The notes under the pieces were generated by a model. That model searched no databases. It saw only the letters and a list, made by a program, of their open reading frames with translations, and had not been told where the DNA came from. Below are positions 23,122 through 54,468 of a stretch of DNA of 64,000 nt, one piece after another. The DNA lies in assembly GCA_002245135.1 (NCBI GenBank), contig NGBS01000586.1:1-64000 (forward strand), in the 5' to 3' direction. Origin of the DNA: Proteromonas lacertae (lineage: Eukaryota). The first letter of the stretch is position 1. The number at the start of each line of letters is the position of its first letter. The translations under genes and the position numbers were made by a program.

Positions 23122-23139
23122 TTGATAGATAATTAAATC

Positions 23140-23930: not shown

Positions 23931-24000
23931 TCAAAATGCATATTCAAAAACAAAAACATATTAATAAGAATAATATAAGGTATAATAATAATAATAATTT

Positions 24001-30000: not shown

Positions 30001-33000
30001 ATATTTATTTATATCATTATTTATTAAGAATTTTACATATATTTCATTTGGTGTATAGGAAAATCTACATTCATCATTATCACGTAATATCATTATTCCA
30101 CCAACATGAACTAATTCTTTTTCATCAATTGTTACATTCAATAAACTTGTATCTACTGTAAAATGAGTATCCATTTTTTTACAAGCACCTGGTGGATAAT
30201 TATCCCATTTTCCATCTTCTTTACATTCTCTATAAGGTCTATAACCATCTGTATAATTGTGAAAAGCTTGACATATTCCTTCTACTACTTCTGATACATT
30301 ACTTAATCTCCATGATATTAAATGTTTTTCATCTGGACTGCAGAATGTTGCTATTGATTTTTGATCAAATGTTGTTTTGTTAGTTAAAGCATATTCTGGG
30401 AATGTTGGATACATTCTCCAATTCAAATAATGGTAATACTCTATATTATTCTTATGAACATTCTTAACTTCAATTGGATATATTACACTATCATTCTCAA
30501 AACAATATGTAAAATTAACAAATTTATCACCTATTTCAAATGTACTTGTATCATTCTCTATTTCTGTCCATCTATAGTGATTTGATACTAAATCTTGATG
30601 ACGAGTATAATTACATGACCATTTATCATCAATTTGAACATAACCAATGAAATTATAATAATCATTATTAACACTTGGTATTATGGATATATTTCCAGAT
30701 ATTTCAAAACCTGTTCCTTTATAATCACATCTTTCACTTTGTTTATTTGGCTGAATAAATTTACCTGATTCTTGACAAACACTTTCTGGATATTCACCTG
30801 GAATTGAGTAAGTATAAAATGCATAACAATAACCTTTGCTAGTTTCATTAAATGGACCATATTTAATATATAAATTATTCTCATAAAATCTTGTTTGATT
30901 ACAATATACAGCTATTATATATATATAAATAACATATACTAAGATTATAATATTGATTATCTTCTATTCTTCCATCTTCAAATCTAGCATAAAATTTGTT
31001 CATATATTCAGGCTTATTTGCTTTAAAATTAACTAAATCATATTCATATCTATCAAAATCTTCATTATATTTAACTTCAATCACTATCATGATAACTTGT
31101 ACATCCTGTACATACATTTTCAATTGAATATACAAATCCCAAATATATGGAAAGATATGCAGGAATAAATTCATATTTAACTTTTACTGTTTGAGTAATT
31201 GTTATTTTACCATTAATCACAGCATATCCATCTTCATCCATATAGGCTGTAGCATTTACATCAAAAACAAATACTCTATCTAAATCTGTACATCCTGTTT
31301 TTGATCTATTAAAGTAATTATAATATCCATTCTTTTCACATCTTCTTTCAAGATCATTTTTATCACCATAAAATTCAGTAAATACAGGGACAATGTCAGC
31401 AGTATGATTTAAACCAATACTAGTAGATGTCCAATACAATAAATTAATAGTTTCACTTGGACAATATGTTGCTATTACTATTTCTTGAAATGTTAAAGAA
31501 CTAGTAAAATTCCATCTTGGTTCATTCTTATATGGAGATAATCTTATTAAAGCATAATGGATGAATTACCAGATTGATAGTGAATTGAAGTTAATTGTAA
31601 AATTATAATATAATTTATTATTGAAACAATATGGTATAGCATAAGAATATTTTGTATTACTATAATCTCGATCAAATGATGTATTACTACTTGAAAAGAA
31701 GAATGTAATGTTAATATAATTTTGATGATATATATAATTACATTCTGAATGATCATCAATGTTTGCATATCCTCTTATACTATAGTAATATTTATTTTGA
31801 CTATCATAATAACTATATGGTTTATTTATATAAGCATCTATTTCAAATTGTGTGCCATTATAAAAACAATATTCATTACTATCTAAACTAGCAAAATTTC
31901 CATCTAATTCACATTCAGTTGATGGCTTTTTAGAATCATCAACATAATAATACATTGGAGCACAATAACCTTCAGTTGATGTATTTGTTGGAGTTGGTAC
32001 AAACCAAGCATTATTCTCATATAAACTTCGACATGTTAATACTATTCAAATATATATAACAATTATTATACTTCTATAATCTACTCCATATACTTCATTA
32101 GCTAAGAATCTATTATCTTTAAAAATCTTCACTACAAAATAATTACTAAACACTGCATTCTGATTCACATATATTTTATCAATTGGAATACTTAATACAT
32201 TATTATTAAAACAATAATTATAATATTTATCTACATAACCATATTTATAATTATCACATCTATCTGTGTATTCACTGTAACAATATACTATAGATAACTG
32301 TGAAGGAGGAAATGGAGAACCACACTCCAATATATCATGAATTAACACATTACCACTCACTTTTGTTTTATTAAATGATAAAACTTCAATTTTCAATTGT
32401 GAAAAATCAATTTTGAATATGTCACTTTCTTTAATGCATTCATTTGTTGTTGCTTCCCAATTTCCATCATCTTTACATTTTCTCTTATTATCAACTTTTG
32501 GTTTCCAGAATGTAATACATGTTCCATTAGCTATACCTGGAACTGAATTAACATAAGACATTTCACCAACTTTTTCAGCTTTACAGTAATTATCTATACA
32601 TTATTATAACAAATAAAATATACATGTATAGATATTACTATCATATTTGTAAGATTTTGCATCAGATAAAACTATATATAATGTTCTAATAGTTAAACTG
32701 CTTATTCCAATATTCAAATTATATGAATATGTATTGTTTATAAATGGATATGATATTTTACTACCTGAATTACAAGGTGTTGCTGGATTTGTTACTTTTG
32801 ATTGAAAACAAACATATAAATAAACTTCTGAAGGAGGATATAATCGAGTATTCATTGATAAATCATTAATAACTATTGTTCCATAAGCTTTTGGATTATT
32901 CACATTGGTATTATCAAATGTTACACCATCAAAGTTCATTTTTAATTCAGGTGCTATTCATATTTATATATACAAACATATATATACGTTTAAATTCACA

Positions 33001-35493
33001 TGAACTACTTGTTTCAATCCATCCAGTTGTTTGACATGTCAGTTTTGGAGCTTTTCCTTCTTCTTTATATTCATAACTTGTATTACATTTTCCTTCAACT
33101 TCTCCAATCAATGATAATGGAAATATCATATTATTTTTTACATAATCTTTACAGGATAATCCTATATAATAACATCATAATTAAATATTTATATACTTTT
33201 AGTATAAACAAAATCACTTGGATTATTTTCATCAGTTCCAATTCTTAAATGTAAAAAGTGTTCTTTTCCAGCCAATGATATTTTATTAGGAGGTATAATA
33301 TCTAATTGATTTCCTATGAAACAATAATCTTTACTTCCTTTTATGAAGTTACAAGTTGAATTTGTAGTATATATCTCAGTATCACATATTCCATATCTAT
33401 AATATAACTTTCCTTTATTACCTTTACAATTTGTACTATCTGTTACTTTTACTTTTCCTTCAATTGCAACTATGTTATTATTATTCATTTCTGTTTTAAC
33501 ATCAGAAACATCAACATTAAATTCTATTCAATTACAATAACAAATAATATTATATACTTGCTCCTTCAAATAAACATATATATGGAGAATATTCCCAAGT
33601 TCCATTATCTAAACATTTTCTTGATATTGCTGGATTTGAACCATCAAATTCATAGAATGGTTTACAGGCAAAATCATCATATGTTCTTGTTTGACCAGAT
33701 GGAGTTCTTTCCCAAGTTATATTATTAGTTATTGTTTCTTGACATACTAAATACACATCTTTTATTAAAAATTCATGTTTCATATCTTTTGTAAAAAATG
33801 TGAATATCAGTTTACTTTGTTGAGGTGTTTTACCAGGTGCTAATGGTAATTTGTTTTCAATATTCTGAATACAAGAAGCAATCTCACTTTGTGGTTTGTC
33901 TTTTCCACCATCATAATTGTAAGAAACTTTATATGTTAATGGAAATGTATTCTTTGAATCACATGTTGGATAAATGATTGTATAATTTCCACCTAATACT
34001 TTCTCATAATTATCATCCCAATCAATTTCTAATTTTATGTCAATATCAGGAACTATAATAATTATATTAATATAAATATATAAATACTGAATTCTTCACA
34101 GTTAGTTTTATCATTTGTAGTATATTTATTATTTCCTAAACATTCTCTGGTTGGTTTATCACCAGATCCAATCCATCTATAATATTCAACACATTTACCA
34201 TAACCAATACCTTTGATAGTAATATCCCAATCGATATTATATTCAACAGGATCAGGTGAATTACATTGAATATCTATTTATCATAATTAATAATGTTAAT
34301 AAATATACCAAATGAATCTATTATTAATTCATCTGTCATTTTGTTTGTTCCAAATACTCCAACTGATACTTCATAAAAATTATATGCAACTTCTTGAGTT
34401 GGAATTGATACTTTATTATCACTAAAACAATAGCTAACATTAACAGGAGTTATTCCATCAAATTTGGTATTACTTTTACTATCAAACATTACATATACAA
34501 ACATCTTTGGTAATAAAGTATTATCACATTTATCTGTTCTTAATATTATATTACCAGAATATTTAATTTTACCTTGACTTGATCCACTTGATATATAGGT
34601 TGATTCTACTTCACTAAAATCAACTGTAACTTTTGGAAATTTATATTTTACACAAGCATTATTATCAGCTGTTTCCCAAACACTGTTTGTACATTTTCTC
34701 ATTGGATTTACACCATCTACTCTATTGTGATATGTTAATTCACATTCTCCAGTTGCTTCTGTGTTTGTTGCTGTTATTGGATAGAATGTGTTATAGATTG
34801 ATTCACTTTCACAAACAATTTCTATTTAATATAAATTCATATAAATATACTGTAAGATTGACTTAACAACTTAAAACTATCACCTTTGGGGTAAGCTTTT
34901 ACATTAAAATATACATTGTGTAAATCAGATGTATGAACATTTACATTAAAAACTTCTGTATAATTATTCTTTGTATGACAACTATCAACAATCACACTCT
35001 TTGATTCATATAATGTAGTATTATCTCTTCCAAAACCCCAAATGTATTCAACTTTATAACCAACAACACTAAATTTATCATTCAATGCACACATTTCAGA
35101 ATCATGCACAGTAAAATAACCAGTTACATCATATCCACTGTCACTTACTTTGATTATAAGATTTTCAAAGTTTACTTGATATGGAGGTGGCCCTATTATT
35201 GCTTTAATATTACAAGTATACATTGAGCTAGCATACGGGGAGAATGATTGAGATAACATTTAAAGCTAATTTCTGACCACTGACCATTTGTACAGTTTCT
35301 GTATGGTAACTTCTCACTCACATATCCTTCATGACATTTAGAGGTGACTTGACCTTCTTCTGACTCTGGCCAATCGGCATAACCGTCATTAAGCTTTAAA
35401 GGACATTTAGTTTGCTAAAACAGTATAAGAAAAAAATATAGTACCTGAAACTATAGCAATAAACGCAAAAAGAAACGCAATAAGCACTTTCAT
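24001..35493 (-). CDS. Giant modular type I surface protein, copy A (apparent frameshifts; error or pseudogene)
   Basis: Signal peptide MKVLIAFLFAFIAIVSA; same exon structure as copy B; TM helix and cytoplasmic tail. Extra bases relative to copy B near 35410, 31560-31590, 31390, 31083 and 27840. Confidence 0.85.
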
Positions 35494-36487
35494 TCAAAAA
35501 ATAATGATAAAACCACCAAAAGGTGTAATTTCTATAAATTCTATTTCTACAGTATATACATACAGTTCCTGCTCAATATTTTGTTTAAAGTAATCTTATA
35601 AATTTTATTCTGCTGGGATAGCATTCTAATACATAACAATGTGATATTAATTAATATCTATAACTACAAGAAAAAAAATCTTAATATAAGAATATATTAG
35701 TTTTACTTTTGGCTTTTCATAGTGCGGCTATGATTATAAGCGCATGTTGTTCTTTATGCTACAAATTCACTATTGCTACTCTTATAATAATCGTTTATGT
35801 AAAAAAATTTGCATTAATGAGTATAATTATAACATTCTTATATTATAATTATTTCATTTTATTATTTTCTAAAAAGAGAAATTATCTATACTCCTACACA
35901 CTGGTGCTTTAATTTCGATATTATTAGTAAGGTATATATTGTCATTATAGACTTCTAAGATAATAAGCATCTTACTACAATGTGCTTAAGAAAAAAATAA
36001 GAACTATTTATTAGGAAATTATAGAATAACTTATATTCGTATTGATATGAGTTAATTATCAGATACTGCATTCCTTTCATTCAATTATTTACTATCTTCT
36101 TAACTTACTATTAGTTTGCTATTTATGCTATTATCTATTAGATAAATTCTAAAGTAACTAATTTTAATTTCAAAAATTATATCCGTTATTTTATACACTT
36201 CTATTTTTAAAGGGCAAAAAAAATATAATGTAAATATTGAAGTATAAATTCACTTCACATTAAAAATAAGTTCTAAGGTAGATTACTACAATTAACACTA
36301 CTTTTATATATTATTATTTCAAATGCCTAATTATGATATACTAAATGTAAAACCGAATGACTAATGATAAAAAAACTTAAAACCAAAATTGTGCATTTTT
36401 TTTTATGGGTTTGATTTGAGCAAATAAAGTGAAACTGACAAAACATTTTTTTTTGAAGTAGAAAGATTATAAAGGAAAATAAAAATT

Positions 36488-39400
36488 ATGTCTAGAGTAA
36501 GTCCAGTTAAAGAAAAACTTCCAGCACCCTCTGGAATAGATAAAGAAGGGTTGGATCAGGATTATGCTCATACTTGTTGGGTATGATTATATTGATAATA
36601 TATTAGGTTAAACCAAGTATAGAAGAAGCTAAAAAACGTGCTGCAAATCATATGTTCGCTAATGGTACAGCATCAATATGTAAAACGCCTATTGAGAAGA
36701 TGACATCAATGGGATCAGGTATAGTTTTATATTTCTGGTTGCTTAAACAACTGTGCATTCTATTCTTCTTCCTCGCTGTTACTGCAATACCTGCAATAGT
36801 TGTATCAGTAAGTGGTGAAAGAATTAGCAAAGATTACGATGCAATAACCTTTGCTCTATCTTCTACAACTGTTGGTAACATATTTACACGAGTTGATGTT
36901 TCTAATTCAACAACTCATTCCTATATCACATTATTTGGTCGTGATTTTTATGCAGTAGATGTATCATTCGTGATATCAGTATGTGATGTATTTGCATGTT
37001 TGTTATTTCTATGTGTTATATTCTATTGGAAAAGAAAAGTTCAAGCAATATCAAAACAGATAAATATAGCTGAGGTAACAGCTAGTGATTATTCAGTTTG
37101 GGTAGAAGGTCTTCCAAAAGATGCAACACATAAAGAAATATTAAAGTTCTTCAATGAATTATATTGTTTAGAAGAAGGTAAAATCAAATATGCTGATAAA
37201 AGAAGTGTAACAAAACATAAAGCTACTAATAGAGGAGTTTTAGTGGATATGAAAAATGAAGAATTATCCAGAGGACCACCTAAAGATAAACCACATAATC
37301 CTTTAACTAATAAATATTGGAAAGGAAAATTAATAAAAGAACCAACTCATTTCTTTACAGTTCAGCAAGGACCTTATATGAACAAATGGATAGCTGAAGT
37401 GGTGGTTGCACATCCTAATGGTAAAGCAATAAGAGCCTATTTGAAGAAACAATCATTAATGAGAGAATTAAGAAGAGCTAGGGCGAATGTGAAGATGTTA
37501 TCTCAAAGCGATGATTATAATCCAAATAAAGTGAAGAAAGCAATGAATAAATTGGCAAATATACAATATAAGTTAGAGAATAATGTGAAAAATATAATTG
37601 ATGTATTTATTTATTATTATTATTATTATTATATGTAATAGAAAGAAGATGATAAAACGTGTATTGGAGCAGCTGTAATGTTTAATAATGAAGAATCTAG
37701 AAATAGATGTTTAACTGAGTTTAATCCAACCAATTTATGTTGTAGTTGTTGTTATTCTACTCCAGCCTATTTGAAGTTTAGAAAAACATATGAATTAAAG
37801 ATTTCCGAAGCACCAAATCCAAGTGATATGATATGGGAGAATTATGAAACTTCAAAATGTGAAATATGTCTGAGAAGAACATTTACTTATTTAGTCTCTT
37901 TATTCTTCTTATGTATTAGTGTTGGTATATTAGCATTTGCTACTTCTAAACAAGAGTATTATGTACAAACTTCTCCTAAGTTAACATTATGTAATTTAGA
38001 TTTACCTGCATTATATTACAAAACTTATAATTTTACCAATACTGATGTGAAGTTAAAAAGAGGAACTGCTGAACAAGATAAACAATGTAATAGTTTATTT
38101 AAGAAATCGAGTAGTAGTGATGATGATAATTGGTATTACATATATTACGATACTACAACTCCTATTATACCAACTAATACTAATGATAACAATAAATCCC
38201 CTTGTTATACACCTTGTACAAGTCCATCAACAACACAATCAATAATGTGTAATACACTCTCATGTTTTGATAAACAATATAATAAAAGATGTGAAAAGTT
38301 TAATATTATTACACAAAGTGGTTGTTATTGTAGTGAGATGCTAAGTAACAATATTGATGAGAAAGGTTGGTTTAAAGGACCATATGATACTCTATTTGGA
38401 GATGATGATTATTGTTATGATTTTGCATATTCATATTTGTATAGTTTAGTATTCTCATTTGCTACTGTATTGTTGACTCTAATTATTAACAGTTTATTGA
38501 TGAATATATTGCAATGTGTTACTAAATTTGAAAGAAGAAAAACAAAGTCCAGTGAAATTAGATCATCTGCCTTAAAGATTTTTGTCAGTTTATTCCTTAA
38601 TACAGCTATTATTATATTAATCGTACAAAGTAATGGGATTTCAGGTAATGAAGTTCCGTTGAAAGTAATTGGTTTATTTGGTGGACAATATCCTGATTTT
38701 ACATCTGCTTGGTATACTGGAGTTGGAAGTGCAATATTGAAAACAATGATATTGAATATGATTACTGCTCATTTATGGCCTATTTTGAATTATTTAGTTG
38801 TTTTACCTTTTACTAGACATTGTGTATATATTATTATTATTTATTTATTAGTGTCGTAAAGCAGTTCTTCAAGATGAATTAGATCAATTATATGAAGGTC
38901 AAGACTTTAGAATAGTTGAAAGACTGCCACTTATATTCAATACTGTGTTTGTTAGTACATTATATACCTCAGGAATACCATTATTCTATCTAGTAGCTTC
39001 ATGCTCATTCTTCATACAGTTTTGGGTAGATAAAGCCTTCTTCTTAAGAATGTATAGAAGACCACCAAGTTATGGTGTTGAATTAATTGCTGATTGTTTA
39101 GACATATTACCTTGGTCAATTGTATTGCATTTAATATTGGGTATATGGATGTTTGGTAGTAATGATGTATTATATGATTCATCTACAGGTGAAGGATTAT
39201 TGAATTTACATTTTATATCAGATAGCACTGGATTAGATTATATGGATATTGAAAATGCTTATAATGAATGGATTCAGAATAATAAATATGATTATTTGAA
39301 GTTATTACCAAAAGTATATTATATATATATTCATATATATATAAATAGATAATGAGAGTGAATGTATTTCCCTTATTTATATTACTTATTACCATATTAT

Positions 39401-39921
39401 TTGTATGGTTAATGTGGACTATATTTATGAAATATTTTATTACTTGTTGTTGCAACACATGTAAAGTATGTTTTTGTAGTTGTTGTTTTGAAAGATATAA
39501 TTTCGAGAAATATCCAAATACTCATATTCCAACTTATTCTGGAATGTTTATATATGAATTAGATCCTTATTATTACCATGAATTAGATAAATTAGCGATT
39601 AAAGAGAATTGGCATATTGAAGATTGTCAAACTGATGATGGTTATATCACACAAGTGAAAATGAAAGTTTGGACTTTAAAGCCTTTAATTCCAAAGAAAA
39701 CATATGAAGTACTTGCTGAGACTGGATTGCATACTTACAATATAAATGCTAATCCTATCTATAAGGATGCTATGAAGGCTAAAATGCAAGTAAAACATCA
39801 GGAGACATTTTCAAATATAAATGATATAAATCATAGGGGATCAGTAGATTATTCTGCAGATATAGAAAACTATGACTATATGCAAGATAGTCATGATCCT
39901 TCAAAAGATTGTGAAGTTTAG
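36488..39921 (+). CDS. OSCA/TMEM63/CSC1-like multi-pass ion channel
   Basis: GSGIVLYFWLLKQL, TASDYSVWVEGLP, APNPSDMIWEN, YPDFTSAWYTGVG, QDELDQLYEG, SGIPLFY and FWVDKAFFLRMYRRPP; about 10 TM segments and a Cys-rich extracellular loop. Four short introns. Confidence 0.85.
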
Positions 39922-40039
39922 GTTTTATGGTTAGATGTATATGTTTTTATTTTATTATCAATTATTGAATTATATATTGTTTTATTGAATAAAAGAATGA
40001 AAATGAATTTTGTAAAACGACTCTTTTTCTTTAATTACA

Positions 40040-41313
40040 ATGAAAAATCTTTTTATTTTTCTTGCTATAGGTATGATGTATCTTTTTTATTTGATTAGCA
40101 ACTCTCTGCTGTGCAGAAGATGTTCCTTTCAGTGGACTTGTCGCTGCTGTTTACAGTCCATTCAAACTTGTATCAAATTATTATTCATATTGTTGTAATA
40201 GAATGATAGTTATTCATTAAACTTAACAGCCGTTCCATTACAAGCTGCATACTTGAAGAAAACTGGAGTAAACGCAGTATTTGTTGGAGGAACTACAGGA
40301 GAATCATTGATAATGTCAATGGCAGAACGTAAAGATTTAGCTAAAGCTTGGGTAGAAGAAGGTAAAAAATCAGACATTAAGGTAATTATCCACGTTGGAG
40401 CTGAATCTTTACAAGAAGCACATGATTTTGCTGCATATTGTGAAAGTATTGGTGCTGATGGAATAGGTTCTATGTCAACAGTCTTTTTCAAACAAAATTC
40501 AGTCAATAATTTGATCCAAGGTATGGCTTATATAGCAGCTGGTGCACCAAAAACGCCATTCTTATATTACCATTTACCAGCAATGACTGGCTGTAAAGTT
40601 GGAATGCCAGATTTCTTAACACTTGCTTATGAAAAAATCCCCACATTTGCTGGAATTAAATTCACAGATACAACTCTTAATGATATAACAGAATTACAAG
40701 CCAGAATCGATGAGTTTGTAAAGCAAGGTAAAAAGAGGGTTTGCTTGTTATTTGGTGTTGATGAAGAATATGATGTATCTGTATTTATGGGATTAGATGG
40801 AGGAGTAGGTTCTACATACAATTATGCTGGTCAAGTGTATGTAAACATCATGGAAGCATATAAAGCTGGTGATATTGATGCTGTTAGAATGTATCAAGAT
40901 CGATCTCAGAAATTTGTTAGAGTATTTGCTAAATATACAGTTAATAATTACAATGCTCACAAGTTATTAAGTTCATGGACTACTGGTGTTGATTTAGGTC
41001 CTCCAAGATTACCATATTTGGAATTAACTGATGAAGCAAAAACAAATTTCAGAAAGGATTTAGAAGCTATTGGATATTTTGATTGGGTTAAGTATATATA
41101 TGTTTTATATATCGTTTATATAGCGAAAAGTACGCCCCAAAGAGTAATTTATTCGCTGTAAAATCAAATGGTGTGAAGTTAGTAGGAGGAATAATTCTTT
41201 GCTCATTATTGACTATTGCTGTTGTATTAATGGTTGCTATAATAGTGATTAAAGTAAAGATGAGTAATAATAAACAAGATAAGAGTGCAATCAAAGTTAC
41301 ATTATTGCCATAA
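40040..41313 (+). CDS. NPL: N-acetylneuraminate lyase with signal peptide and C-terminal TM anchor
   Basis: GGTTGES, YYHLP, Schiff-base Lys in GIKFTD, LLFGVDE, GGVGSTYNY and GPPRLP. Introns 40071-40098, 40170-40201 and 41092-41123 give MKNLFIFLAIATLCCA-EDVPF... and ...VGGIILCSLLTIAVVLMVAIIVIKVK...KVTLLP*. Confidence 0.9.
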
Positions 41314-41625
41314 ATAATTAAACAAAATGTGCTTATATAAAACCTTTTTGTGGGGTTAATCAGAAATAGAGATGAATTTACACCACTATTTGCTGTATAT
41401 AATTGCTACTATAGGGATTTAAAGTTCATAAGATGTTTTATGTACACACTACTTGTGATGAGCATGAAGTGTAGAGATAGTAAAATTTATGTTCTTTTTT
41501 TAACTTTTTCACAATCGACTTAAATATATTAAAATAATATACAACTCATTACAACTTCACGAAAAAATCAGAATAGAAGCTTTATAAAAAATTATCGGTT
41601 GGGGGGTTTCATCTTTTCTATTTGA

Positions 41626-44600
41626 ATGAAAGTGGTTATTGCGTTTCTTTTTGCGTTTATTGCTATAGTTTCAGGTACTATTTTTTTTTCTTATACTGTT
41701 TTAGCAAATAAATGTCCTTTAAAACTGAATGACGGTTATGCCGATTGGCCAGAGTCAGAAGAAGGTCAAGTCACCTCTAAATGTCATGAAGGATATGTGA
41801 GTGAGAAGTTACCATACAGAAACTGTACAAATGGTCAGTGGTCAGAAATTAGCTTTAAATGTTATCCTCATGGTTCACCTCGTATGTTACAAGGAATTTG
41901 TATGCTTGTTGTTTTTTAGTGTATAATAGGGCCACCTGAGTATGAGATTAACTTTGAAAATCTGATAATCAAAGTAAGTGATAGTGGATATGATATAACA
42001 GGATTATTTTCTGTGTATGATGGTGCAAAATGTGATATGAATGAAATGTTCAAAGATTATGGTTATAAAGTTGAATACATTTGGGGTTTTGGAAGAGATA
42101 ATACAACTTTATATGAATCAGAGAGTGTTACAATTGATAGTTGTTACTCAGCTACCAATTATAAACAGGTTTTTAATGTAAATGTTCATACATCTGATTT
42201 ACACAACGTATATTTGAATGTTAGAAATAGAATGGCAACTACTACTTTTGATATTCTAAGTTGGTCATATAGTATATTTATATGAATTTATATTAAATAG
42301 AAATTGTTTGTGAAAGTGAATCAATCTATAACACATTCTATCCAATAACAGCAACAAACACAGAAGCAACTGGAGAATGTGAATTAACATATCACAATAG
42401 AGTAGATGGTGTAAATCCAATGAGAAAATGTACAAACAGTGTTTGGGAAACAGCTGATAATAATGCTTGTGTAAAATATAAATTTCCAAAAGTTACAGTT
42501 GATTTTAGTGAAGTAGAATCAACCTATATATCAAGTGGATCAAGTCAAGGTAAAATTAAATATTCTGGTAATATAATATTAAGAACAAATAAATGTGATA
42601 ATACTTTATTACCAAAGATGTTTGTATATGTAATGTTTGATAGTAAAAGTAATACCAAATTTGATGGAATAACTCCTGTTAATGTTAGCTATTGTTTTAG
42701 TGATTATAAAGTATCAATTCCAATTCCAACTCAAGAAGTTGCATATAATTTTTATGAAGTATCAGTTGGAGTATTTGGAACAAACAAAATGACAGATGAA
42801 TTAATAATAGATTCATTTGGTATATTTATTAACATTATTAATTATGATAAATAGATATTCAATGTAATTCACCTGATCCTGTTGAATATAATATCGATTG
42901 GGATATTACTATCAAAGGTATTGGTTATGGTAAATGTGTTGAATATTATAGATGGATTGGATCTGGTGATAAACCAACCAGAGAATGTTTAGGAAATAAT
43001 AAATATACTACAAATGATAAAACTAACTGTGAAGAATTCAGTATTTATATATTTATATTAATATAATTATTATAGTTCCTGATATTGACATAAAATTAGA
43101 AATTGATTGGGATGATAATTATGAGAAAGTATTAGGTGGAAATTATACAATCATTTATCCAACATGTGATTCAAAGAATACATTTCCATTAACATATAAA
43201 GTTTCTTACAATTATGATGGTGGAAAAGACAAACCACAAAGTGAGATTGCTTCTTGTATTCAGAATATTGAAAACAAATTACCATTAGCACCTGGTAAAA
43301 CACCTCAACAAAGTAAACTGATATTCACATTTTTTACAAAAGATATGAAACATGAATTTTTAACAAAAGATGTGTATTTAGTATGTCAAGAAACAATAAC
43401 TAATAATATAACTTGGGAAAGAACTCCATCTGGTCAAACAAGAACATATGATGATTTTGCCTGTAAACCATTCTATGAATTTGATGGTTCAAATCCAGCA
43501 ATATCAAGAAAATGTTTAGATAATGGAACTTGGGAATATTCTCCATATATATGTTTATTTGAAGGAGCAAGTATATAATATTATTTGTTATTGTAATTGA
43601 ATAGAATTTAATGTTGATGTTTCTGATGTTAAAACAGAAATGAATAATAATAATATAGTTGCAATTGAAGGAAAAGTAAAAGTAACAGATAGTACAAATT
43701 GTAAAGGTAATAAAGGAAAGTTATATTATAAATATGGAATATGTGATGCTGAGATATATACTACAAATTCAACTTGTAACTTCATAAAAGGAAGTAAAGA
43801 TTATTGTTTCATAGGAAATCAATTAGATATTATACCTCCTAATAAAATATCATTGGCTGGAAAAGAACACTTTTTACATTTAAGAATTGGAACTGATGAA
43901 AATAATCCAAGTGATTTTGTTTATACTAAAAGTATATAAATATTTAATTATGATGTTATTATATAGGATTATCCTGTAAAGATTATGTAAAAAATAATAT
44001 GATATTTCCATTATCATTGATTGGAGAAGTTGAAGGAAAATGTAATACAAGTTATGAATATAAAGAAGAAGGAAAAGCTCCAAAACTGACATGTCAAACA
44101 ACTGGATGGATTGAAACAAGTAGTTCATGTGAATTTAAACGTATATATATGTTTGTATATATAAATATGAATAGCACCTGAATTAAAAATGAACTTTGAT
44201 GGTGTAACATTTGATAATACCAATGTGAATAATCCAAAAGCTTATGGAACAATAGTTATTAATGATTTATCAATGAATACTCGATTATATCCTCCTTCAG
44301 AAGTTTATTTATATGTTTGTTTTCAATCAAAAGTAACAACTCCAGCAACACCTTGTAATTCAGGTAGTAAAATATTATATCCATTTATAAACAATACATA
44401 TTCATATAATTTGAATATTGGAATAAGCAGTTTAACTATTAGAACATTATATATAGTTTTATCTGATGCAAAATCTTACAAATATGATAGTAAAATCTAT
44501 ACATGTATATTTTATTTGTTATAATAATGTATAGATAATTACTGTAAAGCTGAAAAAGTTGGTGAAATGTCTTATGTTAATTCAGTTCCAGGTATAGCTA

Positions 44601-47600
44601 ATGGAACATGTATTACATTCTGGAAACCAAAAGTTGATAATAAGAGAAAATGTAAAGATGATGGAAATTGGGAAGCAACAACAAATGAATGCATTAAAGA
44701 AAGTGACATTTTCAAAATTGATTTTTCACAATTGAAAATTGAAGTTTTATCATTTAATAAAACAAAAGTGAGTGGTAATGTGTTAATTCATGATATATTG
44801 GAGTGTGGTTCTCCATTTCCTCCTTCACAGTTATCTATAGTATATTGTTACAGTGAATACACAGATAGATGTGATAATTATAAATATGGTTATGTAGATA
44901 AATATTATGCTTATTGTTTTAATAATAATGTATTAAGTATTCCAATTGATAAAATATATGTGAATCAGAATGCAGTGTTTAGTAATTATTTTGTAGTGAA
45001 GATTTTTAAAGATAATAGATTCTTAGCTAATGAAGTATATGGAGTAGATTATAGAAGTATAATAATTGTTATATATATTTGAATAGTATTAACATGTCGA
45101 AGTTTATATGAGAATAATGCTTGGTTTGTACCAACTCCAACAAATACATCAACTGAAGGTTATTGTGCTCCAATGTATTATTATGTTGATGATTCTAAAA
45201 AGCCATCAACTGAATGTGAATTAGATGGAAATTTTGCTAGTTTAGATAGTAATGAATATTGTTTTTATAATGGCACACAATTTGAAATAGATGCTTATAT
45301 AAATAAACCATATAGTTCTTATGATAGTCAAAATAAATATTACTATAGTATAAGAGGATATGCAAACATTGATGATCATTCAGAATGTAATTATATATAT
45401 CATCAAAATTATATTAACATTACATTCTTCTTTTCAAGTAGTAATACATCATTTGATCGAGATTATAGTAATACAAAATATTCTTATGCTATACCATATT
45501 GTTTCAATAATAAATTATATTATAATTTTACAATTAACTTCAATCACTATCAATCTGGTAATCACCATTATGCTTTAATAAGATTATCTCCATATAAGAA
45601 TGAACCAAGATGGAATTTTACTAGTTCTTTAACATTTCAAGAAATAGTAATAGCAACATATTGTCCTAGTGAAACTATTAATTTATTGTATTGGACATCT
45701 ACTAGTATTGGTTTAAATCATACTGCACATTGTCCTGTATTTACTGAATTTTATGGTGATAAAAATGATCTTGAAAGAAGATGTGAAAAGAATGGATATT
45801 ATAATTACTTTAATAGATCAAAAACAGGATGTACAGATTTAGATAGAGTATTTGTTTTTGATGTAAATGCTACAGCCTATATGGATGAAGATGGATATGC
45901 TGTGATTAATGGTAAAATAACAATTACTCAAACAGTTAAAGTTAAATATGAATTTATTCCTGCATATCTTTCCATATATTTGGGATTTGTATATTCAATT
46001 GAAAATGTATGTACAGGATGTACAAGTTATCATGATAGGATTGAAGTTAAATATAATGAAGATTTTGATAGATATGAATATGATTTAGTTAATTTTAAAG
46101 CAGATAAGCCTGAATATATGAACAAATTTTATGCTAAATTTGAAGATGGAAGAATAGAAGATAATCTATATTATAATCTTAGTATATGATATTTATATAT
46201 ATATAATAGCTGTATATTGTAATCAAACAAGATTTTATGAGAATAATTTATATATTAAATATGGTCCATTTAATGAAACTAGCAAAGGTTATTGTTATGC
46301 ATTTTATACTTACTCAATTCCAGGTGAATATCCAGAAAGCGTTTGTCAAGAATCAGGTAAATTTATTCAGCCAAATAAACAAAGTGAAAGATGTGATTAT
46401 AAAGGAACAGGTTTTGAAATATCTGGAAATATATCCATAATACCAAGTGTTAATAATGATTATTATAATTTCATTGGTTATGTTCAAATTGATGATAAAT
46501 GGTCATGTAATTATACTCGTCATCAAGATTTAGTATCAAATCACTATAGATGGACAGAAATAGAGAATGATACAAGTACATTTGAAATAGGTGATAAATT
46601 TGTTAATTTTACATATTGTTTTGAGAATGATAGTGTAATATATCCAATTGAAGTTAAGAATGTTCATAAGAATAATATAGAGTATTATCATTATTTGAAT
46701 TGGAGAATGTATCCAACATTCCCAGAATATGCTTTAACTAACAAAACAACATTTGATCAAAAATCAATAGCAACATTCTGCAGCCCAGATGAAAAACATT
46801 TAATATCATGGAGATTAAGTAATGTATCAGAAGTAGTAGAAGGAATATGTCAAGCTTTTCACAATTATACAGATGGTTATAGACCTTATAGAGAATGTAA
46901 AGAAGATGGAAAATGGGATAATTATCCACCAGGTGCTTGTAAAAAAATGGATACTCATTTTACAGTAGATACAAGTTTATTGAATGTAACAATTGATGAA
47001 AAAGAATTAGTTCATGTTGGTGGAATAATGATATTACGTGATAATGATGAATGTAGATTTTCATATACACCAAATGAAATATATGTAAGATTCTTAATAA
47101 ATAATGATATAAATAAATATTCAACAACTGTCCATAAAATACCATATTGTTTTGAGAATGGTACATATCATTTTAATATGACTGGTTTGAAAGATACTGT
47201 AAGTGTGAATAAAGCATATAATCAATTGAATTTCATGTTTTGTTATGATCCAATATGTAATGCTGTTTTAAATAAGCATCATATCAAATTATCATGTGTT
47301 TCAAAGTCAATATCATCTGGATTTATGGGTGCTGCAGTGATAGGAGAATATGGATATGGTTATTGTGAAGAATTTCATGAATATGATGGTGGAAATATAC
47401 CAAAAGCATTGTGTTTACCATCTGGTCAATTTGAAGCATTTTCAACCTCACAAACATGTAAATATACAGGAACAAAATTTGTAATGAGTAGAAACTTTAG
47501 TATAGAATCTGTTAATTCATCATATTATCATTTGAATGGATATGTTGTAATAAAAGATGATTATTACTGTAAATATACAAAGAAACCTGATTCATTAAGA

Positions 47601-50600
47601 GTTGCTTATATCTTTGCAGATTTCAAATATGTTAGACTTCCATGTTCTTTAAAGGAAATTGTAATACCTTATTGTTTCGCAGATAATAATACATATACAT
47701 TATATCATGATGTATATATAAAGAAGAATGAAGTATCTGATTATAAATATTTAAGTAGTTATTTAATTGCTCCAGATGGTGATCCTATATTTAATTGTGG
47801 TTCAGCCTTTGCTGAACTTAAAGAAGCAACATATTGTAATAAAGATACTGCTTATAGTATTACATGGGATTATGGTAGTTTAGATCAATATAATGAAGGA
47901 GATTGTCCACCATTTACTAACTATAATGGTAAAACTGTAAGACCATTGAGATATTGTGATATAAATGGATTATGGAAAGCATTTGATACTACTTATAAAT
48001 GTGAAGCTATTACAACAGGATTTGAAATCTCATTTGATTATCTTAATTCAAGTATTGATGAATATGATAGTAATGTAATATTTGGAAATATCTCACTTTA
48101 TGATCGATTTGAATGTAATTATAATTTCACACCATTTAGTTTATATGTAAGATATGGTTTTTCTGAAGAAGATGGTATAATGGATTATTATAAAACAAAA
48201 GAAATCCCTTATTGTTGGGAAGGTAATAAGTATGAAATGGAAATTCCTGCTTATTCTCAATTAGAATATTCTTATGATTATTTCACATTTGAGTTATGTG
48301 TAGATTCATCATGTTCAAAAGTACTAAAAACCAAAACTCAAAGAGTATTCTGTTCAGAAAATGAAGCAAATGAAGTAACATGGAGAAAAGCAGGATTTGG
48401 AACTCATTTAGGTGAATGTAGAGAGTTTTATACTCAACCAGAAAGTCAATTATTAGAAAGACAATGTAATATTGATGGAAAATGGGGTTCTTATAATAAC
48501 AGTTGTATGTTGATTGATTTACCTGGAACAGTAATAACATTAAGTGATGTTAGTGGTAATTATATAAATAATGAAACTGGTGAATATAATATAACCTTTA
48601 CATTTACAGTTGCTTATGTAAAATGTAGTATATTACCTCCTGATACTCAAATCAAATTTGGTTATTCATTGTTAGAGAAATCATTTAATGATTATGTTCC
48701 ATTAGATTATACTAATGATTCTTATTGTCGAAATACTCCTCCTGTCAGTTTTACAAGATTAGTTCATGTTTATCCATCTGAAGAGAATAAGTTGAATTTA
48801 CATGCAAAGATATGTTTAGCTACAAGATTAGATGATTGTAGTGTTCCATCTCAACAAGAAACATATCCAATAGCATGTAAAGAAGAAGAAAATGCTTATA
48901 ATGCATCTTGGTTACAATCAATAGTGAATGAAAATATAACAGGAAGATGTTTACCTGATTATATATATGATAATGATGATGGAGCAGATTTTCCAACAAG
49001 AAAATGTTTAGTGGGAGGAAGTTGGTCTTCACCATCGAAAGGATGCACATATCAAATAAGACCAGAATTTGATTGGGAATTTGGTGATTTGGATATACAC
49101 TTGAATTTAAGTTCAAACAGAAAAATAGTAACAGCTGTAACACTGAATGGTCCATTATATTTAACTGACTTGAAAAAATGTACAAAATTCCAACCAATCA
49201 TTTATCTTCAATACACTTTATCTCAATTTGAGAATAGTTTTATAGATGGAGATGTAATAACAGAAGAAGTAGATTATTGTTTCAAGAAAAAGAATGTATT
49301 TACAAAGAATTTCACTGATTATAGTGGAATAAATGTGAGATATTTAAATTGTAGAATGTGTATGGATAAGAAATGTGAAAAGATAATTCAAAAATATACA
49401 CAACCATTGTATTGTGAAGCTGTTAGTTCCAATGGTTTAGATTGGGATCCAAGTCCTTTAAAACCAATGACAAATGTTTGTCCAAATACAAGTATATGGG
49501 AAACATCAGGTTGGAATGGTCCAGAAGAAGTTCCAACAAAAGTTTGTTTTCAGAATGGAACATGGGATTTAACTCCTTATAAATGTGTATATCCAGATGA
49601 ATGGTGTCCAAAGGAAACAAAGTATAATGCTTATTGGCCAATATCTGTGCCAAAACCTGTAGTTTATGGTGATTGTCAAGAAGGATATATATCAGTTGGA
49701 CCAGATGGACATTCATATAGAGAATGTTTTCAAGGTTTATATTTCAGTGATGCTGTTTATTATAAATGTGTAAGTAATGCATTTACTCATCTTGTATTTG
49801 ATTTAACAGTTGATAATAAGAAAGTTGTTAATAAAGATTTCGATGTAAGTGGAAAGTTTAATATGCATCTTGAAAATTACAACTGTCATCCTGATGATAA
49901 TGATACTGTTCCATTAGATATTTATGGTTATTATGGTTCATCAGCTCAGAAAGTGTTATTAACTACATTTAATTATACATGTCATTCTGGAAATGTATTT
50001 GATAGTGATTTTGTTTTACCAATTCCATTGTTGGTTAAATATCCTGGCACAACTTTAGAATTGACATTAGAGTTTAATAGAACTGAATTTATTCGTCATG
50101 TTGAAGGTATATAGATATATCTATTATATATTATTATTATTATAGTTCTTGGATGTGAATATATAGAAGAAAGTGAGAATAATTTCAATACTTCCTTACC
50201 AGGGACAATAATAGGTAAATGTTCAAATGGTTATGTATCTGATAATCCAAATAATGATAATAATCCATTCAGAAAATGTAATGCTGATGGATTATGGGAA
50301 GAAATAGAATATCCATGTTATAAACAGAGTATAATATTGTTATTTATTCTTATTAAAATAGCTTATAAAGATTTAACATTCGATTATAAAGAATTCTATG
50401 TTAGAGCTTTGACTGCTTCTGATCAATTCTGTGTTTCACAAACAGTGAATTTAGTTTATTCAAAAGAATGTCCAACAGTAGAAAAATACTTTAAATTATC
50501 ATTGTTTTCTCATTTTACAGAAGATGAAGAAAAACAATCTTATTCATCAACAAATATCTCATTCATGTGTCAAGAGAATAACAAATTCACAATAAGTGAA

Positions 50601-53120
50601 GAAAGATGTATTTATATAAACCAATCAAATTACATTATTTTTGATCTTTATGTTGATGGAAAATATGAAAAATCAGATAAATATGTATTAGGATGTGAAA
50701 GAGTGAAAGTTGGTAGAGATAATTGGTATATATCGTTAGTTGGAATGAATGAAGGTTATTGTGATGCTGGTGGTTATAAAGCTAATACTCCAACAGGTAA
50801 TCCAATGAGAGAATGTACAAGTAAAGGATGGGGAGTAATGAGTAGTAGATGTGTATTAGATGAGTATAAATACTTTAAACTATCAGTTGATGATTCATTC
50901 TTATCAATTAGTGAGAATAAGTTTTGTATTCATTCTGTCATATTGACATATGAGATAAATAGTTGTAATACTACATTTGTAGATTATCGTTTAACTTATC
51001 TTTTATCAGGTGAAATAGATGAATTACTGTTTTCTAATTTAACATTTGATTGTAAAACAATGAATGAATACAAAATCAAACCATCATCTCCAATTTGTGT
51101 AAATGATACATATGAGAATGTATTATTCTCATTATCAAATGAAAATGATTTCATAACTGATTTAACAGCTAATTTAGGATGTGGATCAACAGAGTTTGCT
51201 AATGCCAATTTCCCACTTTCATTACCAGGTGATATAGTTGAAGGAGAATGTATAGATGGTTATATAATCTTTGATACACCTTATCCAACAGCAAAGTGTC
51301 AACCTGATTCTAGTTACAGTAGTATAAGTGAATGTTTACCAAAAGATTATCCTGAAGTTAATGTTGATAAACTTGAGATTAGTGTGAAAGATGACAAACA
51401 ATTTTGTATTAGTGAAGTTTTAGAAGTGTATTTCAATGGAGAAGAATGTCGAAAACCAACATTGAATCTACAATTGAAAGTGTATTATATAATAAATGGA
51501 GTTAAAAAGTTCTTATATAGTTTCCCATATAGTTGTAAAGCAGGATTAGTATCTGAATATAGAATATCACCTGAAATATGTTTAGAAGAAAATGTAAATA
51601 CAATGAGTTTTGAAATAGATTATAATGATAATAAACTATCAGAAACACCATTAACATTAGGTTGTTTATCATATTCAGTTGATAGATTTCAATTTGGTTT
51701 ATCTCCAGGTGGAGATGATATAGTATTAGGAGATTGTTTATCAGAATATGAATATGTGAATATATCTTGTAAACCCAAAGCAATATGTAATAAAGATGAA
51801 GGTAAATATGAGAATATAAGTGGTTATTGTACTTATCCAGATTATCAAGATACGACATTCTCCTTAGATCAAGTATATGTGAGTAAACCACCTGAAGATA
51901 ATAGATTCTGTGTAGAAGGAACATTATTAACAATTCATGTTGGAAGTTGTGATAATCAATCAAGTGTAATACCTTTAACAATATCCTATAAATATCCAAA
52001 CAGTGATCAGAAACATTTCTTTGAAGAATTTCTTTATGATTGTAAAGAAGGAATAATTGATTTACATAAATTTAATGAACCACTTTGTGTAGATGGAACA
52101 TCCATCAATAATATCACAATAATATTAGAAAAGACACAAACAAATGAAATAATCTCCACATCAGCATTGTTATTAGGATGTCTTGGTTATGAAGATGAAT
52201 CAACAATATGGAATGCGACATTAACAAATAACTCAACAGAAGGTATGTGTAAACCAACTTTCGTATATAATGAAGGATCAGGTCCAAGAAAATGTAATGA
52301 AAATGGTTTATGGGAAGAAAAGAATAATGTTTGTGTAAGATTAAAAGAGAAATCATTTATGGATGAATATGGAGCTTTAGTAATTGGGTTATCAGCTGGT
52401 GTATGTTGTTTCTGGTGGTTAATGGTTTTAATGTCATTGTTGTTTATGTATTTATATAAGAAATTACGTGAAAAGAAAGAAGAAAAACAATTGAAAACAA
52501 TAATTCCATCTGATGCCAATCCAATAAGTAGTGCAACAGTTGGTTCAAATGGACAGAATGGACAAAATCCACCAGTTGATGCAAAACCAATAGAACAAAA
52601 AGTATTCCATGCTCCAAAGCGAAGAATGACTAGAAGAAAATTAAAGCCAGTAGGATCAAGACCAAGTCAATTACCTGCTTTGAAAGTTCCTCAATTACCA
52701 GTTACAATGGATGATGCTGATATTGATAAAGAAGATTTGAATTCTTCAAAGCCAGATGGAATGATGTTACATAATACTGGAATTAGTCTTCGAATGAATA
52801 GTAGAGATAGTGATGAGTTTAATTATAAGAGAGTTCCAAGTAATGCTTCATCAATAACACACAAGTTTGGAGAAACTAACACAAACAGTTCAAATTCATC
52901 GATAGATACAACAGGTAGTAAAGATAATACATCTCCTAGACAACCTACTAAAGTTGAATTACCTGAAGTATTGAATAAACCATTAAATCAATTAACAAAG
53001 AGTGGATTATTACCTCCTTTAGCTAGAAAGTCTTTTAATCCTGTGAATAGATTTGAAACAAGAACAATATCATCTGAAGCACCAAAACAAGAACTCAGAA
53101 AGAAGAAGATTATTGAATAG
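41626..53120 (+). CDS. Giant modular type I surface protein, copy B (intact, 3,690 aa)
   Basis: Thirteen introns (41675-41704, 41900-41929, 42272-42300, 42820-42854, 43041-43075, 43571-43604, 43932-43966, 44141-44174, 44505-44534, 45057-45086, 46182-46209, 50107-50145, 50329-50361; 422 nt total) leave an 11,073-nt reading frame. It encodes a signal peptide, 21 C-x-W-x-G-x-C-x-R-x-C-x-G-x-W-x-C modules, 19 beta-rich domains, TM GALVIGLSAGVCCFWWLMVLMSLLFMYLY and a Ser/Pro-rich tail. Confidence 0.92.
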
Positions 53121-54000
53121 AAATTATTATTATTATTATACCTTATATTATTCTTATTAATATGTTTTTGTTTTTGAATATGCATTTTGATTGAATAATT
53201 GATTCATGAATCGTGAGATAATGAGAAAAAGAAAATGAGAAAGTTTGGCTTGAATATTTGAGAGAATCAAGCCTATATATACAAAAAATGATTAAAATAT
53301 CTTCTTGTGAAGTGATATAAGAACTATCTGAAAGATATCTAGAAGCTATTTCTTTGGTACTATATGTTACTTGGATGAAATCTTCTAAGGTATTTACTTG
53401 CATAAAAGATTAAGTAATCTTATTAGATGCAGTATTATCTCAATCCGCAATACAATTACGTGCAAGATTAGATGATATACCTGAAGAGATATTTGTCTTC
53501 TTATGTGATATACAAGATATTTTATCTATTGGAGTTGAAGAGATGAATATCATATTATGTTCAGTATATTTAACTTCATGTGATAGTTTATCTGAAGAAG
53601 GTAATGTTTGTACAGCAATGATTTTACATCTATTATAATTAATTCTTTAATTTGTTGTTTATTTGCTGAATTGTTATTATTTCCATCAGTAGCTGATATT
53701 CTACCTCCACCAATAACGAAATCAAGATCTGAATTAATCTAAGGTGAAAAATTATTATCAAATGTTGGAATAATAATTTTGAGAATGTAATAAATAGTGA
53801 TAATATTAGTTTAGATGAAGTAGAAGATGAAGAAACGCCAGGAGTTGATACAGAATATTTATCTTAATTCAGGTGACAGATTTTAATAAATCTCAAGTCA
53901 TAAATAATCCAAATTAAATCGTCAATTATTAGTTCTATCAGTAGATCCTCATTACTTCAAGGTAAAAGTTCAGAAACAATAGATTTAATTATCTAATCAA

Positions 54001-54468
54001 TTATTCAATATTAAAGAATTGTTTAGATAATTCTTTCTTTTCTTCTTCTGATATTCCATCTAATTTTATTGTATGGACTGATGAAAATGTTTTTAGAAAT
54101 GATTTTAATTCTGATTTATCTATGTTTTCTTTCACTGTCATTGTTAATTTAGTATATTCAAATATTTTACTATTTTCTTTCATTAATCTCAACCCTTTTT
54201 CATTTAATTCATTTCCTGATATATCCACATAACTTAACCTTCCATACTTTTTTATGCTTTTTATTAACATTTTTAATCCTTTCTCATTCATTCCAACATC
54301 TATTCATAATATAATAACATATTATATTGATAAAATACTTGAAAGATTTAATGATAATTGATTATTCAGTAAATATATCAAATATTTATGATATTATCTC
54401 TATTCCTTCATCTCCAATTGGATTGCCATATATTGAAATATATTCTGCTCTTTTATGAAAAGACTCTA
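54001..54468 (-). pseudogene. 5'-truncated duplicate of the pseudokinase-LRR gene 3' end
   Basis: Matches 22655-23121 (last exon near-identical), locally diverged at 54360-54395, and lacks everything upstream. Confidence 0.85.

What the first reader, a model, noticed from the sequence alone, without database searches (positions are those of the whole stretch)
40040..41313. Sialic-acid lyase converted into a type I membrane protein
Seen only after splicing: signal peptide MKNLFIFLAIATLCCA, sequons NDS and NLT, intact catalytic motifs, then an extra exon with a roughly 22-aa TM helix, a basic stop-transfer and a short tail ending TLLP. Known: NanA/NPL enzymes are normally soluble cytosolic tetramers. 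Inference: an ecto- or lysosomal/vacuolar enzyme that cleaves host mucin-derived Neu5Ac outside the cytosol, for feeding or to deplete sialic acid.
Basis: partly seen in the sequence, partly recalled or inferred. Interest (0 to 1): 0.8.

Follow-up and report, generated by a model that had tools for sequence, protein, structure and literature searches.

The report
Membrane-anchored sialic acid lyase in protist
A gut protist related to Blastocystis has a gene for a likely sialic-acid-splitting enzyme that, unlike its studied cytosolic relatives, carries a predicted export signal and membrane anchor, so it would break the sugar down inside digestive vacuoles or at the cell surface; the export signal is shared with many unstudied protist relatives and only the anchor is a local addition.

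Summary
Four exons (three GTAT..TAG introns of 28, 32, 32 nt) give a 393-aa protein: a predicted signal peptide (1-16), an N-acetylneuraminate lyase domain with all NAL motifs (closest structure human NPL, TM-score 0.88), a 24-residue hydrophobic helix (350-373) and a 20-aa basic tail. Relatives confirm the last intron: two clusters at 71-72% identity encode the spliced junction and helix contiguously, and relatives at 93-94% keep the exon while the intron varies. The organism is an Opalinata gut protist outside Blastocystis, probably Proteromonas-like. The story needs one correction. The change happened in two steps. Signal-peptide NPLs without an anchor are common in free-living protists (40 of 374 homologs; Cafeteria, a diplonemid) and fall in one eukaryotic clade next to animal NPL. 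Only the anchor is local (9 of 276 proteins, 3 clusters), added behind an intron at the old C-terminus. Most likely it is a luminal enzyme of the digestive endo-lysosome that splits Neu5Ac or related acids freed by sialidase. Location, substrate and host-mucin source are untested; no RNA run was listed. I found no published description in ten searches. New variant of a known enzyme; interest 0.5.

The parts
40040..40070 (+). Exon 1: ATG and first 10 codons of the predicted signal peptide
40071..40098 (+). Intron 1, 28 nt, phase 1, inside the signal peptide; stop in exon-2 frame
   Evidence: not confirmed by RNA
40099..40169 (+). Exon 2: end of signal peptide (predicted cleavage after Ala16, 40113-40115) and first beta strand of the barrel
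40170..40201 (+). Intron 2, 32 nt, phase 0; stops in exon-3 frame
40202..41091 (+). Exon 3: most of the DHDPS-family TIM barrel and the C-terminal helices (PF00701, E 8e-42)
40202..40228 (+). N-glycosylation sequons at Asn35 and Asn41
   Evidence: use of the sites is inferred
40286..40303 (+). Carboxylate-binding motif GGTTGE (Thr65, Thr66; E. coli Ser47, Thr48)
40568..40585 (+). Catalytic Tyr157 (E. coli Tyr137) and Met162 (E. coli Leu142)
40658..40660 (+). Schiff-base Lys187 (E. coli Lys165)
40754..40765 (+). Sugar-binding motif GVDE (219-222)
40805..40816 (+). Aldol-cleavage motif VGST (236-239)
41092..41123 (+). Intron 3, 32 nt, phase 2, at the position where anchor-less secreted relatives end
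41124..41313 (+). Exon 4: 19-aa linker, predicted transmembrane helix, basic tail, TAA
41179..41250 (+). Predicted transmembrane helix, residues 350-373
   Evidence: hydropathy 3.21; conserved 17-18 of 24 in P0122/P0001
41251..41310 (+). Predicted cytosolic tail, 20 aa, net +4 in the first 15, with a Leu-Leu pair near the end (no acidic residue at -4)

Best explanation
The four-exon gene encodes an NPL-type lyase domain between a predicted signal peptide and a predicted membrane anchor, so it is likely a luminal, membrane-tethered enzyme of the digestive endo-lysosome that would split free sialic acid into N-acetylmannosamine and pyruvate for feeding. Shown: gene structure, intact NAL motifs, conservation of the anchor exon, nesting in a clade of signal-peptide NPLs. 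Inferred: the signal peptide is cleaved after Ala16, the domain is N-glycosylated and faces the lumen, the helix stops transfer, and the Leu-Leu tail may sort it to endo-lysosomes. A sialidase would free Neu5Ac (or Neu5Gc, Kdn, related bacterial acids) from ingested mucus or bacteria; Lys187 forms the Schiff base and Tyr157 assists retro-aldol cleavage; the neutral hexosamine would cross to the cytosol, where the lineage's reported ManNAc-6-P epimerase/kinase fusion feeds it to glycolysis. History, inferred: an old soluble secretory NPL gained the anchor exon behind an intron at its former C-terminus after gene duplication in the Opalinata gut lineage.
For: Splicing and topology. Spliced junction plus helix encoded contiguously in P0002 and the P0003 cluster; same exon behind a variable intron in P0001/P0122/P0121. 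NAL identity: best PDB sequence hit human NPL 6ARH (E 2e-55); model pLDDT 95.7, best Foldseek match 6ARH, TM 0.88; motifs match those listed in PMC4016182. Secretory ancestry: 40 of 374 homologs have a signal-peptide-like start; they carry more sequons (mean 1.74, n 38, against 0.77, n 262; related sequences, so the p value is inflated); two such transcripts have an in-frame stop just upstream of the Met (L001, L002). In the ML tree all 28 signal-peptide sequences included lie in a 40-sequence clade (SH-aLRT 90) whose sister holds rodent NPL (94); the four anchored sequences form a clade (96.6). Pathway context, from supplement tables of PMC12129017: NAL, sialidase and a ManNAc-6-P epimerase/kinase fusion are listed for P. 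lacertae, with 5 DapA-like genes against 1 in each Blastocystis. Bacterial relatives at 35-42% identity sit next to NanM, SSF transporters or BNR sialidase-like genes in 13 of the 30 loci scanned (30 of 44 loci with flanks were given). Leu-Leu near the C-terminus in all 3 anchored clusters and the window.
Against: No RNA, protein, location or activity data. No anchored relative has its N-terminus on record, so the signal peptide is confirmed only through more distant homologs. The Leu-Leu tail lacks the acidic residue of canonical sorting motifs (recalled) and rests on two lineages. Characterised NALs work best at pH 6-8.5 (7.5-8.5 for AsNAL, with 60% left at 5.5; 6-7 for group 3), which fits the cell surface or a mildly acid vacuole better than a pH 4.5-5 lysosome. 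The protein is far below the NCBIfam nanA cut-offs (116 against 382; 120 against 281). 17 of 30 bacterial loci showed no nan-type neighbour within 1.5 kb. NALs are ring-shaped tetramers, and whether linkers of 13-19 residues let four anchors reach one membrane is open. No sialic-acid gene was seen next to it in the window.
Confidence: 0.55

Rival explanations
1. It is a cell-surface ecto-enzyme that cleaves Neu5Ac freed from host mucin in the gut lumen, so the cell takes up ManNAc and pyruvate and denies sialic acid to bacteria.
For: Same topology evidence; the anchor appears only in the gut-lineage clade; neutral to alkaline optima of studied NALs; no canonical lysosomal motif in the tail.
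Against: The ancestral signal-peptide form is in free-living protists such as Cafeteria (P0008) and the diplonemid Namystynia (P0423); products released outside would be shared with gut bacteria (inference); Leu-Leu is kept near the tail end.
Confidence: 0.27
2. It is a secretory-pathway aldolase that prefers another keto-deoxy acid (Kdn, Kdo or a bacterial nonulosonic acid) from ingested bacteria rather than host Neu5Ac.
For: The clade is mostly free-living protists; a Kdn-specific NAL-family aldolase is known (PMC10017367) and NPL orthologs have broad specificity (PMC13214540); only about 37-40% identity to the closest characterised enzyme.
Against: All NAL motifs match human NPL and E. coli NanA; the ManNAc-specific downstream enzyme is reported in the lineage.
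Confidence: 0.12
3. The main product is not anchored or not exported: intron 3 is retained or an alternative acceptor (40116 or 40119) shortens the signal peptide, giving a soluble or cytosolic enzyme.
For: In-frame alternative acceptors exist; no RNA evidence; P0004 and P0012 end at the intron-3 position in their records.
Against: Exon 4 is 69-71% identical in relatives whose intron differs in length and frame; the junction is contiguous in 7 sequences; the alternative first introns are 46-62 nt or use a GTGC donor, outside the enriched class.
Confidence: 0.05
4. It runs in the synthetic direction in the Golgi, making sialic acid for the protist's own coat.
For: The reaction is reversible; sialic acid was reported on the Blastocystis surface by lectins (PMC7477959).
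Against: Sialylation needs CMP-activated sugar made outside the Golgi lumen (PMC13214540); luminal pyruvate and ManNAc supply is not known (own knowledge).
Confidence: 0.02

Closest known systems
Human/rodent N-acetylneuraminate pyruvate lyase NPL (EC 4.1.3.3; PDB 6ARH)
   Same: Best PDB hit by sequence (E 2e-55) and fold (TM 0.88, 37% identity); same motifs, Phe at the E. coli Tyr110 position; rodent NPL lies in the sister clade.
   Different: Animal NPL has no signal peptide or anchor and acts on Neu5Ac after export from the lysosome by sialin (PMC13214540); this protein is predicted to face the lumen.
Bacterial NanA (E. coli 1NAL; Aliivibrio salmonicida 5AFD; Proteus mirabilis 6H4E)
   Same: TIM barrel with three-helix bundle, Lys/Tyr catalytic pair, GxDE and GST motifs.
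   Different: 24-31% identity, far below NCBIfam nanA cut-offs; acts after uptake into the cell; no introns, no anchor.
Blastocystis ST1 N-acetylneuraminate lyase OAO16509.1
   Same: Same annotated activity in the sister genus; listed as present in Cafeteria, P. lacertae and all Blastocystis, and judged unlikely to be a lateral transfer (supplement row of PMC12129017).
   Different: Single copy in Blastocystis against 5 DapA-like genes in P. lacertae. No named Blastocystis protein was among the 120 best hits, so it is probably not the close ortholog; I could not see its sequence or termini.
Uncharacterised signal-peptide NPL-like proteins of free-living protists (Cafeteria P0008, Namystynia P0423, P0005-P0011)
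   Same: Signal peptide with 21-26 residues before the first strand in P0005-P0011 (22 here), sequons, 44-49% identity, same clade.
   Different: The closest of them end at the Trp where intron 3 lies here; none has a membrane anchor.

Membership tests
N-acetylneuraminate lyase (NAL/NPL) | DHDPS-family TIM barrel with C-terminal helices | tested here: met
   PF00701 E 8e-42; model of exon 3 pLDDT 95.7, TM 0.88 to 6ARH
N-acetylneuraminate lyase (NAL/NPL) | Schiff-base lysine and catalytic tyrosine | tested here: met
   Lys187 = E. coli Lys165, Tyr157 = Tyr137
N-acetylneuraminate lyase (NAL/NPL) | Carboxylate-binding G-S/T-S/T-GE block | tested here: met
   GGTTGE 63-68 (motif from PMC4016182)
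N-acetylneuraminate lyase (NAL/NPL) | Sugar-binding G[F/Y/P/V]DE and aldol-cleavage [I/V][G/S][S/G]T blocks | tested here: met
   GVDE 219-222, VGST 236-239
N-acetylneuraminate lyase (NAL/NPL) | Homotetramer | not tested
N-acetylneuraminate lyase (NAL/NPL) | Cleaves Neu5Ac to ManNAc and pyruvate | not testable with these tools
   Needs an enzyme assay
N-acetylneuraminate lyase (NAL/NPL) | Soluble cytosolic location of characterised members | tested here: not met
   Predicted signal peptide and conserved membrane helix; this is the variant feature
Bacterial NanA equivalog (TIGR00683, NF003164) | Curated score cut-off | tested here: not met
   115.7 against 382 and 119.9 against 281 for exon 3, though these are the two best NCBIfam hits
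Dihydrodipicolinate synthase DapA | Arg at the E. coli NanA Leu142 position (recalled; the 1HL2 title names the L142R mutant) and TIGR00674 cut-off | tested here: not met
   Met162; 68.9 against 206 bits
Kdn-specific aldolase (Sphingobacterium) | Specificity residue at position 50 | not tested
   Named in PMC10017367; the sequence was not in hand to map it
Type I single-pass membrane protein | Cleavable N-terminal signal peptide | tested here: inconclusive
   Lys2, hydrophobic core, Cys14/Ala16 pattern, same register as signal-peptide homologs; no SignalP, no N-terminal data
Type I single-pass membrane protein | One 20-25 residue hydrophobic helix followed by a basic, hydrophilic tail (not a terminal GPI signal) | tested here: met
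   Residues 350-373, hydropathy 3.21, 20-aa tail with net +4 next to the helix; conserved in 9 homologs
Endo-lysosomal membrane protein | [DE]xxxL[LI] or DxxLL tail motif (recalled) | tested here: inconclusive
   Leu-Leu kept near the end in all anchored sequences, acidic residue missing

The most novel reading that the evidence does not exclude
Eukaryotes have a second, so far undescribed branch of NPL that works inside the secretory/endocytic lumen. It is widespread in free-living protists as a soluble enzyme, and Opalinata gut protists tethered it to the membrane with a new exon, building a luminal or surface route (sialidase, then anchored lyase, then ManNAc uptake) that degrades sialic acid without any sialic-acid transporter.
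Probability: 0.55. Interest if true: 0.68.

Novelty: new variant of a known kind. Interest (0 to 1): 0.5.

Why it matters
In the papers I read, sialic acid lyase acts in the cytosol after a dedicated transporter (NanT, SiaT or sialin) has brought the sugar in. A luminal or surface lyase would reverse that order and remove the need for the transporter. It would also show that gut protists compete with bacteria for sialic acid by a route of their own. The wider signal-peptide clade points to an overlooked role of protist grazers in turning over sialic and related acids. It is also a clean case of a membrane anchor gained by adding an exon at an old C-terminus, and a source of possibly acid-tolerant, glycosylated sialic acid aldolases.

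Tried and rejected
No whole genome is held. No RNA holder was listed for 39900-41500; this is no evidence either way. The first intron-enrichment test with mononucleotide shuffles showed nothing; the stricter one did. A metagenome scan with the gut-clade alignment found no relative, and the second returned no anchored member (best 49% identity), so the DNA behind P0002-P0004 and P0012 was not seen. The Atlas gave only DHDPS/NAL clusters at 0.79 for P0002; a second query did not complete. The single-sequence model of P0002 was poor (pLDDT 50.7) and is not used. P0261's apparent C-terminal helix is the second signal peptide of a tandem protein and was dropped from the anchor count. Supports printed and 71 were shifted by rerooting; one search gives the corrected values. 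Lateral transfer from gut bacteria rejected as origin: the gene nests among eukaryotic sequences and PMC12129017 reaches the same view for the Blastocystis gene. A GPI signal rejected because a hydrophilic tail follows the helix. Blastocystis proper rejected as source: EHD falls outside the genus, the window has an alpha-2-macroglobulin gene, a family listed as absent from Blastocystis. Four look-ups in earlier findings gave nothing relevant.

Full report
Observation. The region 40040-41313 (+) splices into one frame of 393 codons plus TAA with exons 40040-40070, 40099-40169, 40202-41091 and 41124-41313. The introns are 28, 32 and 32 nt, begin GTAT, end TAG and are AT-rich (GC 0.16-0.21). Such segments of 27-35 nt occur 57 times in the window against a mean of 24 and a maximum of 32 in 30 block shuffles (duplicated arms count twice). 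Candidate introns picked by eye in neighbouring genes are 26-35 nt. Hydropathy gives two peaks: the N-terminus and residues 350-373 (best window 3.21). Sequons lie at Asn35 and Asn41.

Introns 1 and 2 are needed for any enzyme. Both downstream frames contain a stop inside the intron. Exon 2 holds the first beta strand, which aligns with homologs, and the first Met in exon 3 comes after the GxxGE motif. Of 17 in-frame start/donor/acceptor combinations only the proposed one uses an intron of 27-35 nt; in-frame acceptors at 40116 and 40119 would shorten the signal peptide and cannot be excluded without RNA. No RNA holder was listed.

Intron 3 and the anchor are confirmed by relatives. P0002 (72% identity) and the six members of the P0003 cluster (71%) read WVNEKY, exactly the spliced junction, then a hydrophobic helix and a tail. 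P0001 and P0122 (93-94%) read through a 30-nt in-frame intron into an exon that is 43 and 44 of 62 residues identical to exon 4, and P0121 stops inside the intron. The exon is kept while the intron changes length and frame. Similarity of exon 4 to the P0002/P0003 anchors is weak (1 of 1000 shuffles reached the score) but position, the GGII start of the helix and a Leu-Leu near the end agree. P0004 and P0012 stop at the same place, which would fit an unread intron; their DNA was not seen.

The domain is an NPL-type lyase. Exon 3 matches PF00701, and its best PDB hits are human NPL 6ARH (E 2e-55), then Proteus and Aliivibrio NALs. A model from a 100-sequence alignment has pLDDT 95.7 and matches 6ARH with TM-score 0.88. 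Against E. coli NanA: Thr65/Thr66, Tyr157, Met162 (Leu142), Lys187, Gly219-Asp221-Glu222 and Ser238 are in register and fit the motifs listed in PMC4016182 (passages). It misses the NCBIfam cut-offs for both nanA and dapA, nanA being the best hit. Bacterial relatives at 35-42% identity have NanM (6), SSF transporter (4) or BNR sialidase-like (3) neighbours in 13 of 30 loci; I scanned 57 of 83 flanking ORFs, from 30 of 44 loci.

The signal peptide is old, the anchor is new. By a simple hydropathy rule 40 of 374 homologs have a signal-peptide-like start. Named ones are Cafeteria (P0008) and the diplonemid Namystynia (P0423); most come from unnamed contigs. They carry more sequons than homologs without one (mean 1.74, n 38, against 0.77, n 262; not independent). 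L001 and L002 have an in-frame stop a few codons before the signal-peptide Met. In an ML tree of 59 sequences all 28 with a signal peptide (27 homologs, two labelled by eye, plus the window) fall in a 40-sequence clade (SH-aLRT 90) that also holds members without one; its sister contains rodent NPL (94). The gut-lineage group has 100 and the four anchored sequences 96.6. A FastTree of 176 sequences put 21 of 22 in one clade (0.92). Sampling was enriched for these sequences, and the long tandem signal-peptide proteins P0258 (a moth) and P0261 were left out. An anchor after the domain is found in 9 of 276 proteins that have the C-terminal motif, in 3 clusters. The closest anchor-less relatives end at the Trp just before intron 3, so the exon was most likely added at the old C-terminus.

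Organism. The window's EHD protein has Blastocystis as best full-length hits at 63-64% and branches as sister to all Blastocystis, tortoise isolate included (100; Blastocystis alone 99.7). GC is 26.4% against 27.0% reported for Proteromonas lacertae, 21-23% for tortoise and 39-55% for the other Blastocystis (PMC12129017 section 5). The window has an alpha-2-macroglobulin gene, a family listed in P. lacertae and not in Blastocystis. I read it as an Opalinata gut protist, probably Proteromonas or a near relative; this rests on one gene tree. Supplement rows of the same paper list NAL in Cafeteria, P. lacertae and all Blastocystis as unlikely lateral transfer, 5 DapA-like genes and 2 sialidases in P. 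lacertae, and a ManNAc-6-P epimerase/kinase fusion gained at the base of Opalinata. Several paralogs fit the groups at 94, 72, 64 and 56% identity seen.

Surroundings. The gene lies in a unique spacer of about 6 kb between inverted arms of about 13 kb each (roughly 22655-35538 and 41581-54468) that carry a giant repeat membrane-protein gene. Upstream is a multi-pass membrane gene with a weak anoctamin hit. I saw no sialic-acid gene among the ORFs scanned.

Mechanism. Most likely (0.55): a luminal, tethered enzyme of the digestive endo-lysosome that cleaves sialic acid freed by sialidase; ManNAc and pyruvate then reach the cytosol. Surface ecto-enzyme 0.27; other keto-deoxy acid preferred 0.12; unanchored or cytosolic product 0.05; synthesis 0.02. 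The presence of the soluble form in free-living protists and the kept Leu-Leu favour the vacuole; the pH optima of studied NALs (PMC6559660 and PMC4016182, passages) and the non-canonical tail favour the surface. Oligomer state is open.

Literature. Ten searches, four of them aimed at this enzyme with Blastocystis, signal peptide, membrane or lysosome terms, gave no description of a signal-peptide or anchored NAL in the listings or passages I saw. Seen as passages: PMC5811610, PMC7477959 (lists NAL among enzymes secreted by or found in lysates of Entamoeba), PMC4977848, PMC10690189, PMC10017367, PMC13214540, PMC6559660, PMC4016182; PMC12129017 as passages, section 5 and supplement rows. Eme et al. 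2017 and Zahonova et al. 2023 were seen only as citations; they and their supplements may bear on novelty. Sorting-motif rules and the DapA arginine are recalled.

Verdict. Real gene, correctly described; a new variant of a known enzyme. The unusual part is twofold: an apparently undescribed secretory NPL branch across protists, and a membrane anchor limited to this gut lineage. Interest 0.5.

Noticed in passing
window 22655-35538 and 41581-54468: Inverted duplication of about 13 kb per arm, 97-100% identical over most of its length, each arm holding a giant multi-exon gene with signal peptide, many hormone-receptor/Sushi-like repeats, one membrane helix and a long tail. The inner ends are more diverged (82-94%), which argues against a pure assembly artefact. 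One notebook entry gives 19 kb; that is wrong.
   Followed up: partly
window 2805-6445 (-): Alpha-2-macroglobulin-like gene (PF00207, weak TED hit); the family is listed in P. lacertae but not in Blastocystis or Cafeteria.
   Followed up: partly
L001 1-24 and L002 1-27: Two different eukaryotic transcripts of signal-peptide NPLs share a T-rich 5' leader of about 24 nt ending in GAG, which looks like a spliced leader; lineage not identified.
   Followed up: no
window 36490-39921 (+): Multi-exon, multi-pass membrane gene directly upstream, weak anoctamin hit (E 0.01); resembles an OSCA/TMEM63-type channel by recall, with a cysteine-rich loop. It ends 118 nt before the lyase ATG.
   Followed up: no
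P0275, P0438: Signal-peptide NPLs with a long basic N-region; P0275 is on a 31.9-kb contig and nests among the eukaryotic signal-peptide sequences. They may be bacterial, which would mean a periplasmic lyase.
   Followed up: no
P0258, P0261: Proteins with two tandem DHDPS-family domains and signal peptides (P0258 is from the moth Plodia interpunctella), about 30% identical: possibly a separate secreted branch in insects.
   Followed up: no
P0017: Paralog at 64% identity with a 7-residue insert that looks like a 21-nt in-frame intron read through.
   Followed up: no
window 41675-41704: The neighbouring repeat-protein gene also appears to have a 30-nt intron within or just after its signal peptide.
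   Followed up: no
window 16399-16974 and 54467-55031: A second, short inverted duplication (about 570 nt, 97-99%) outside the large arms.
   Followed up: no
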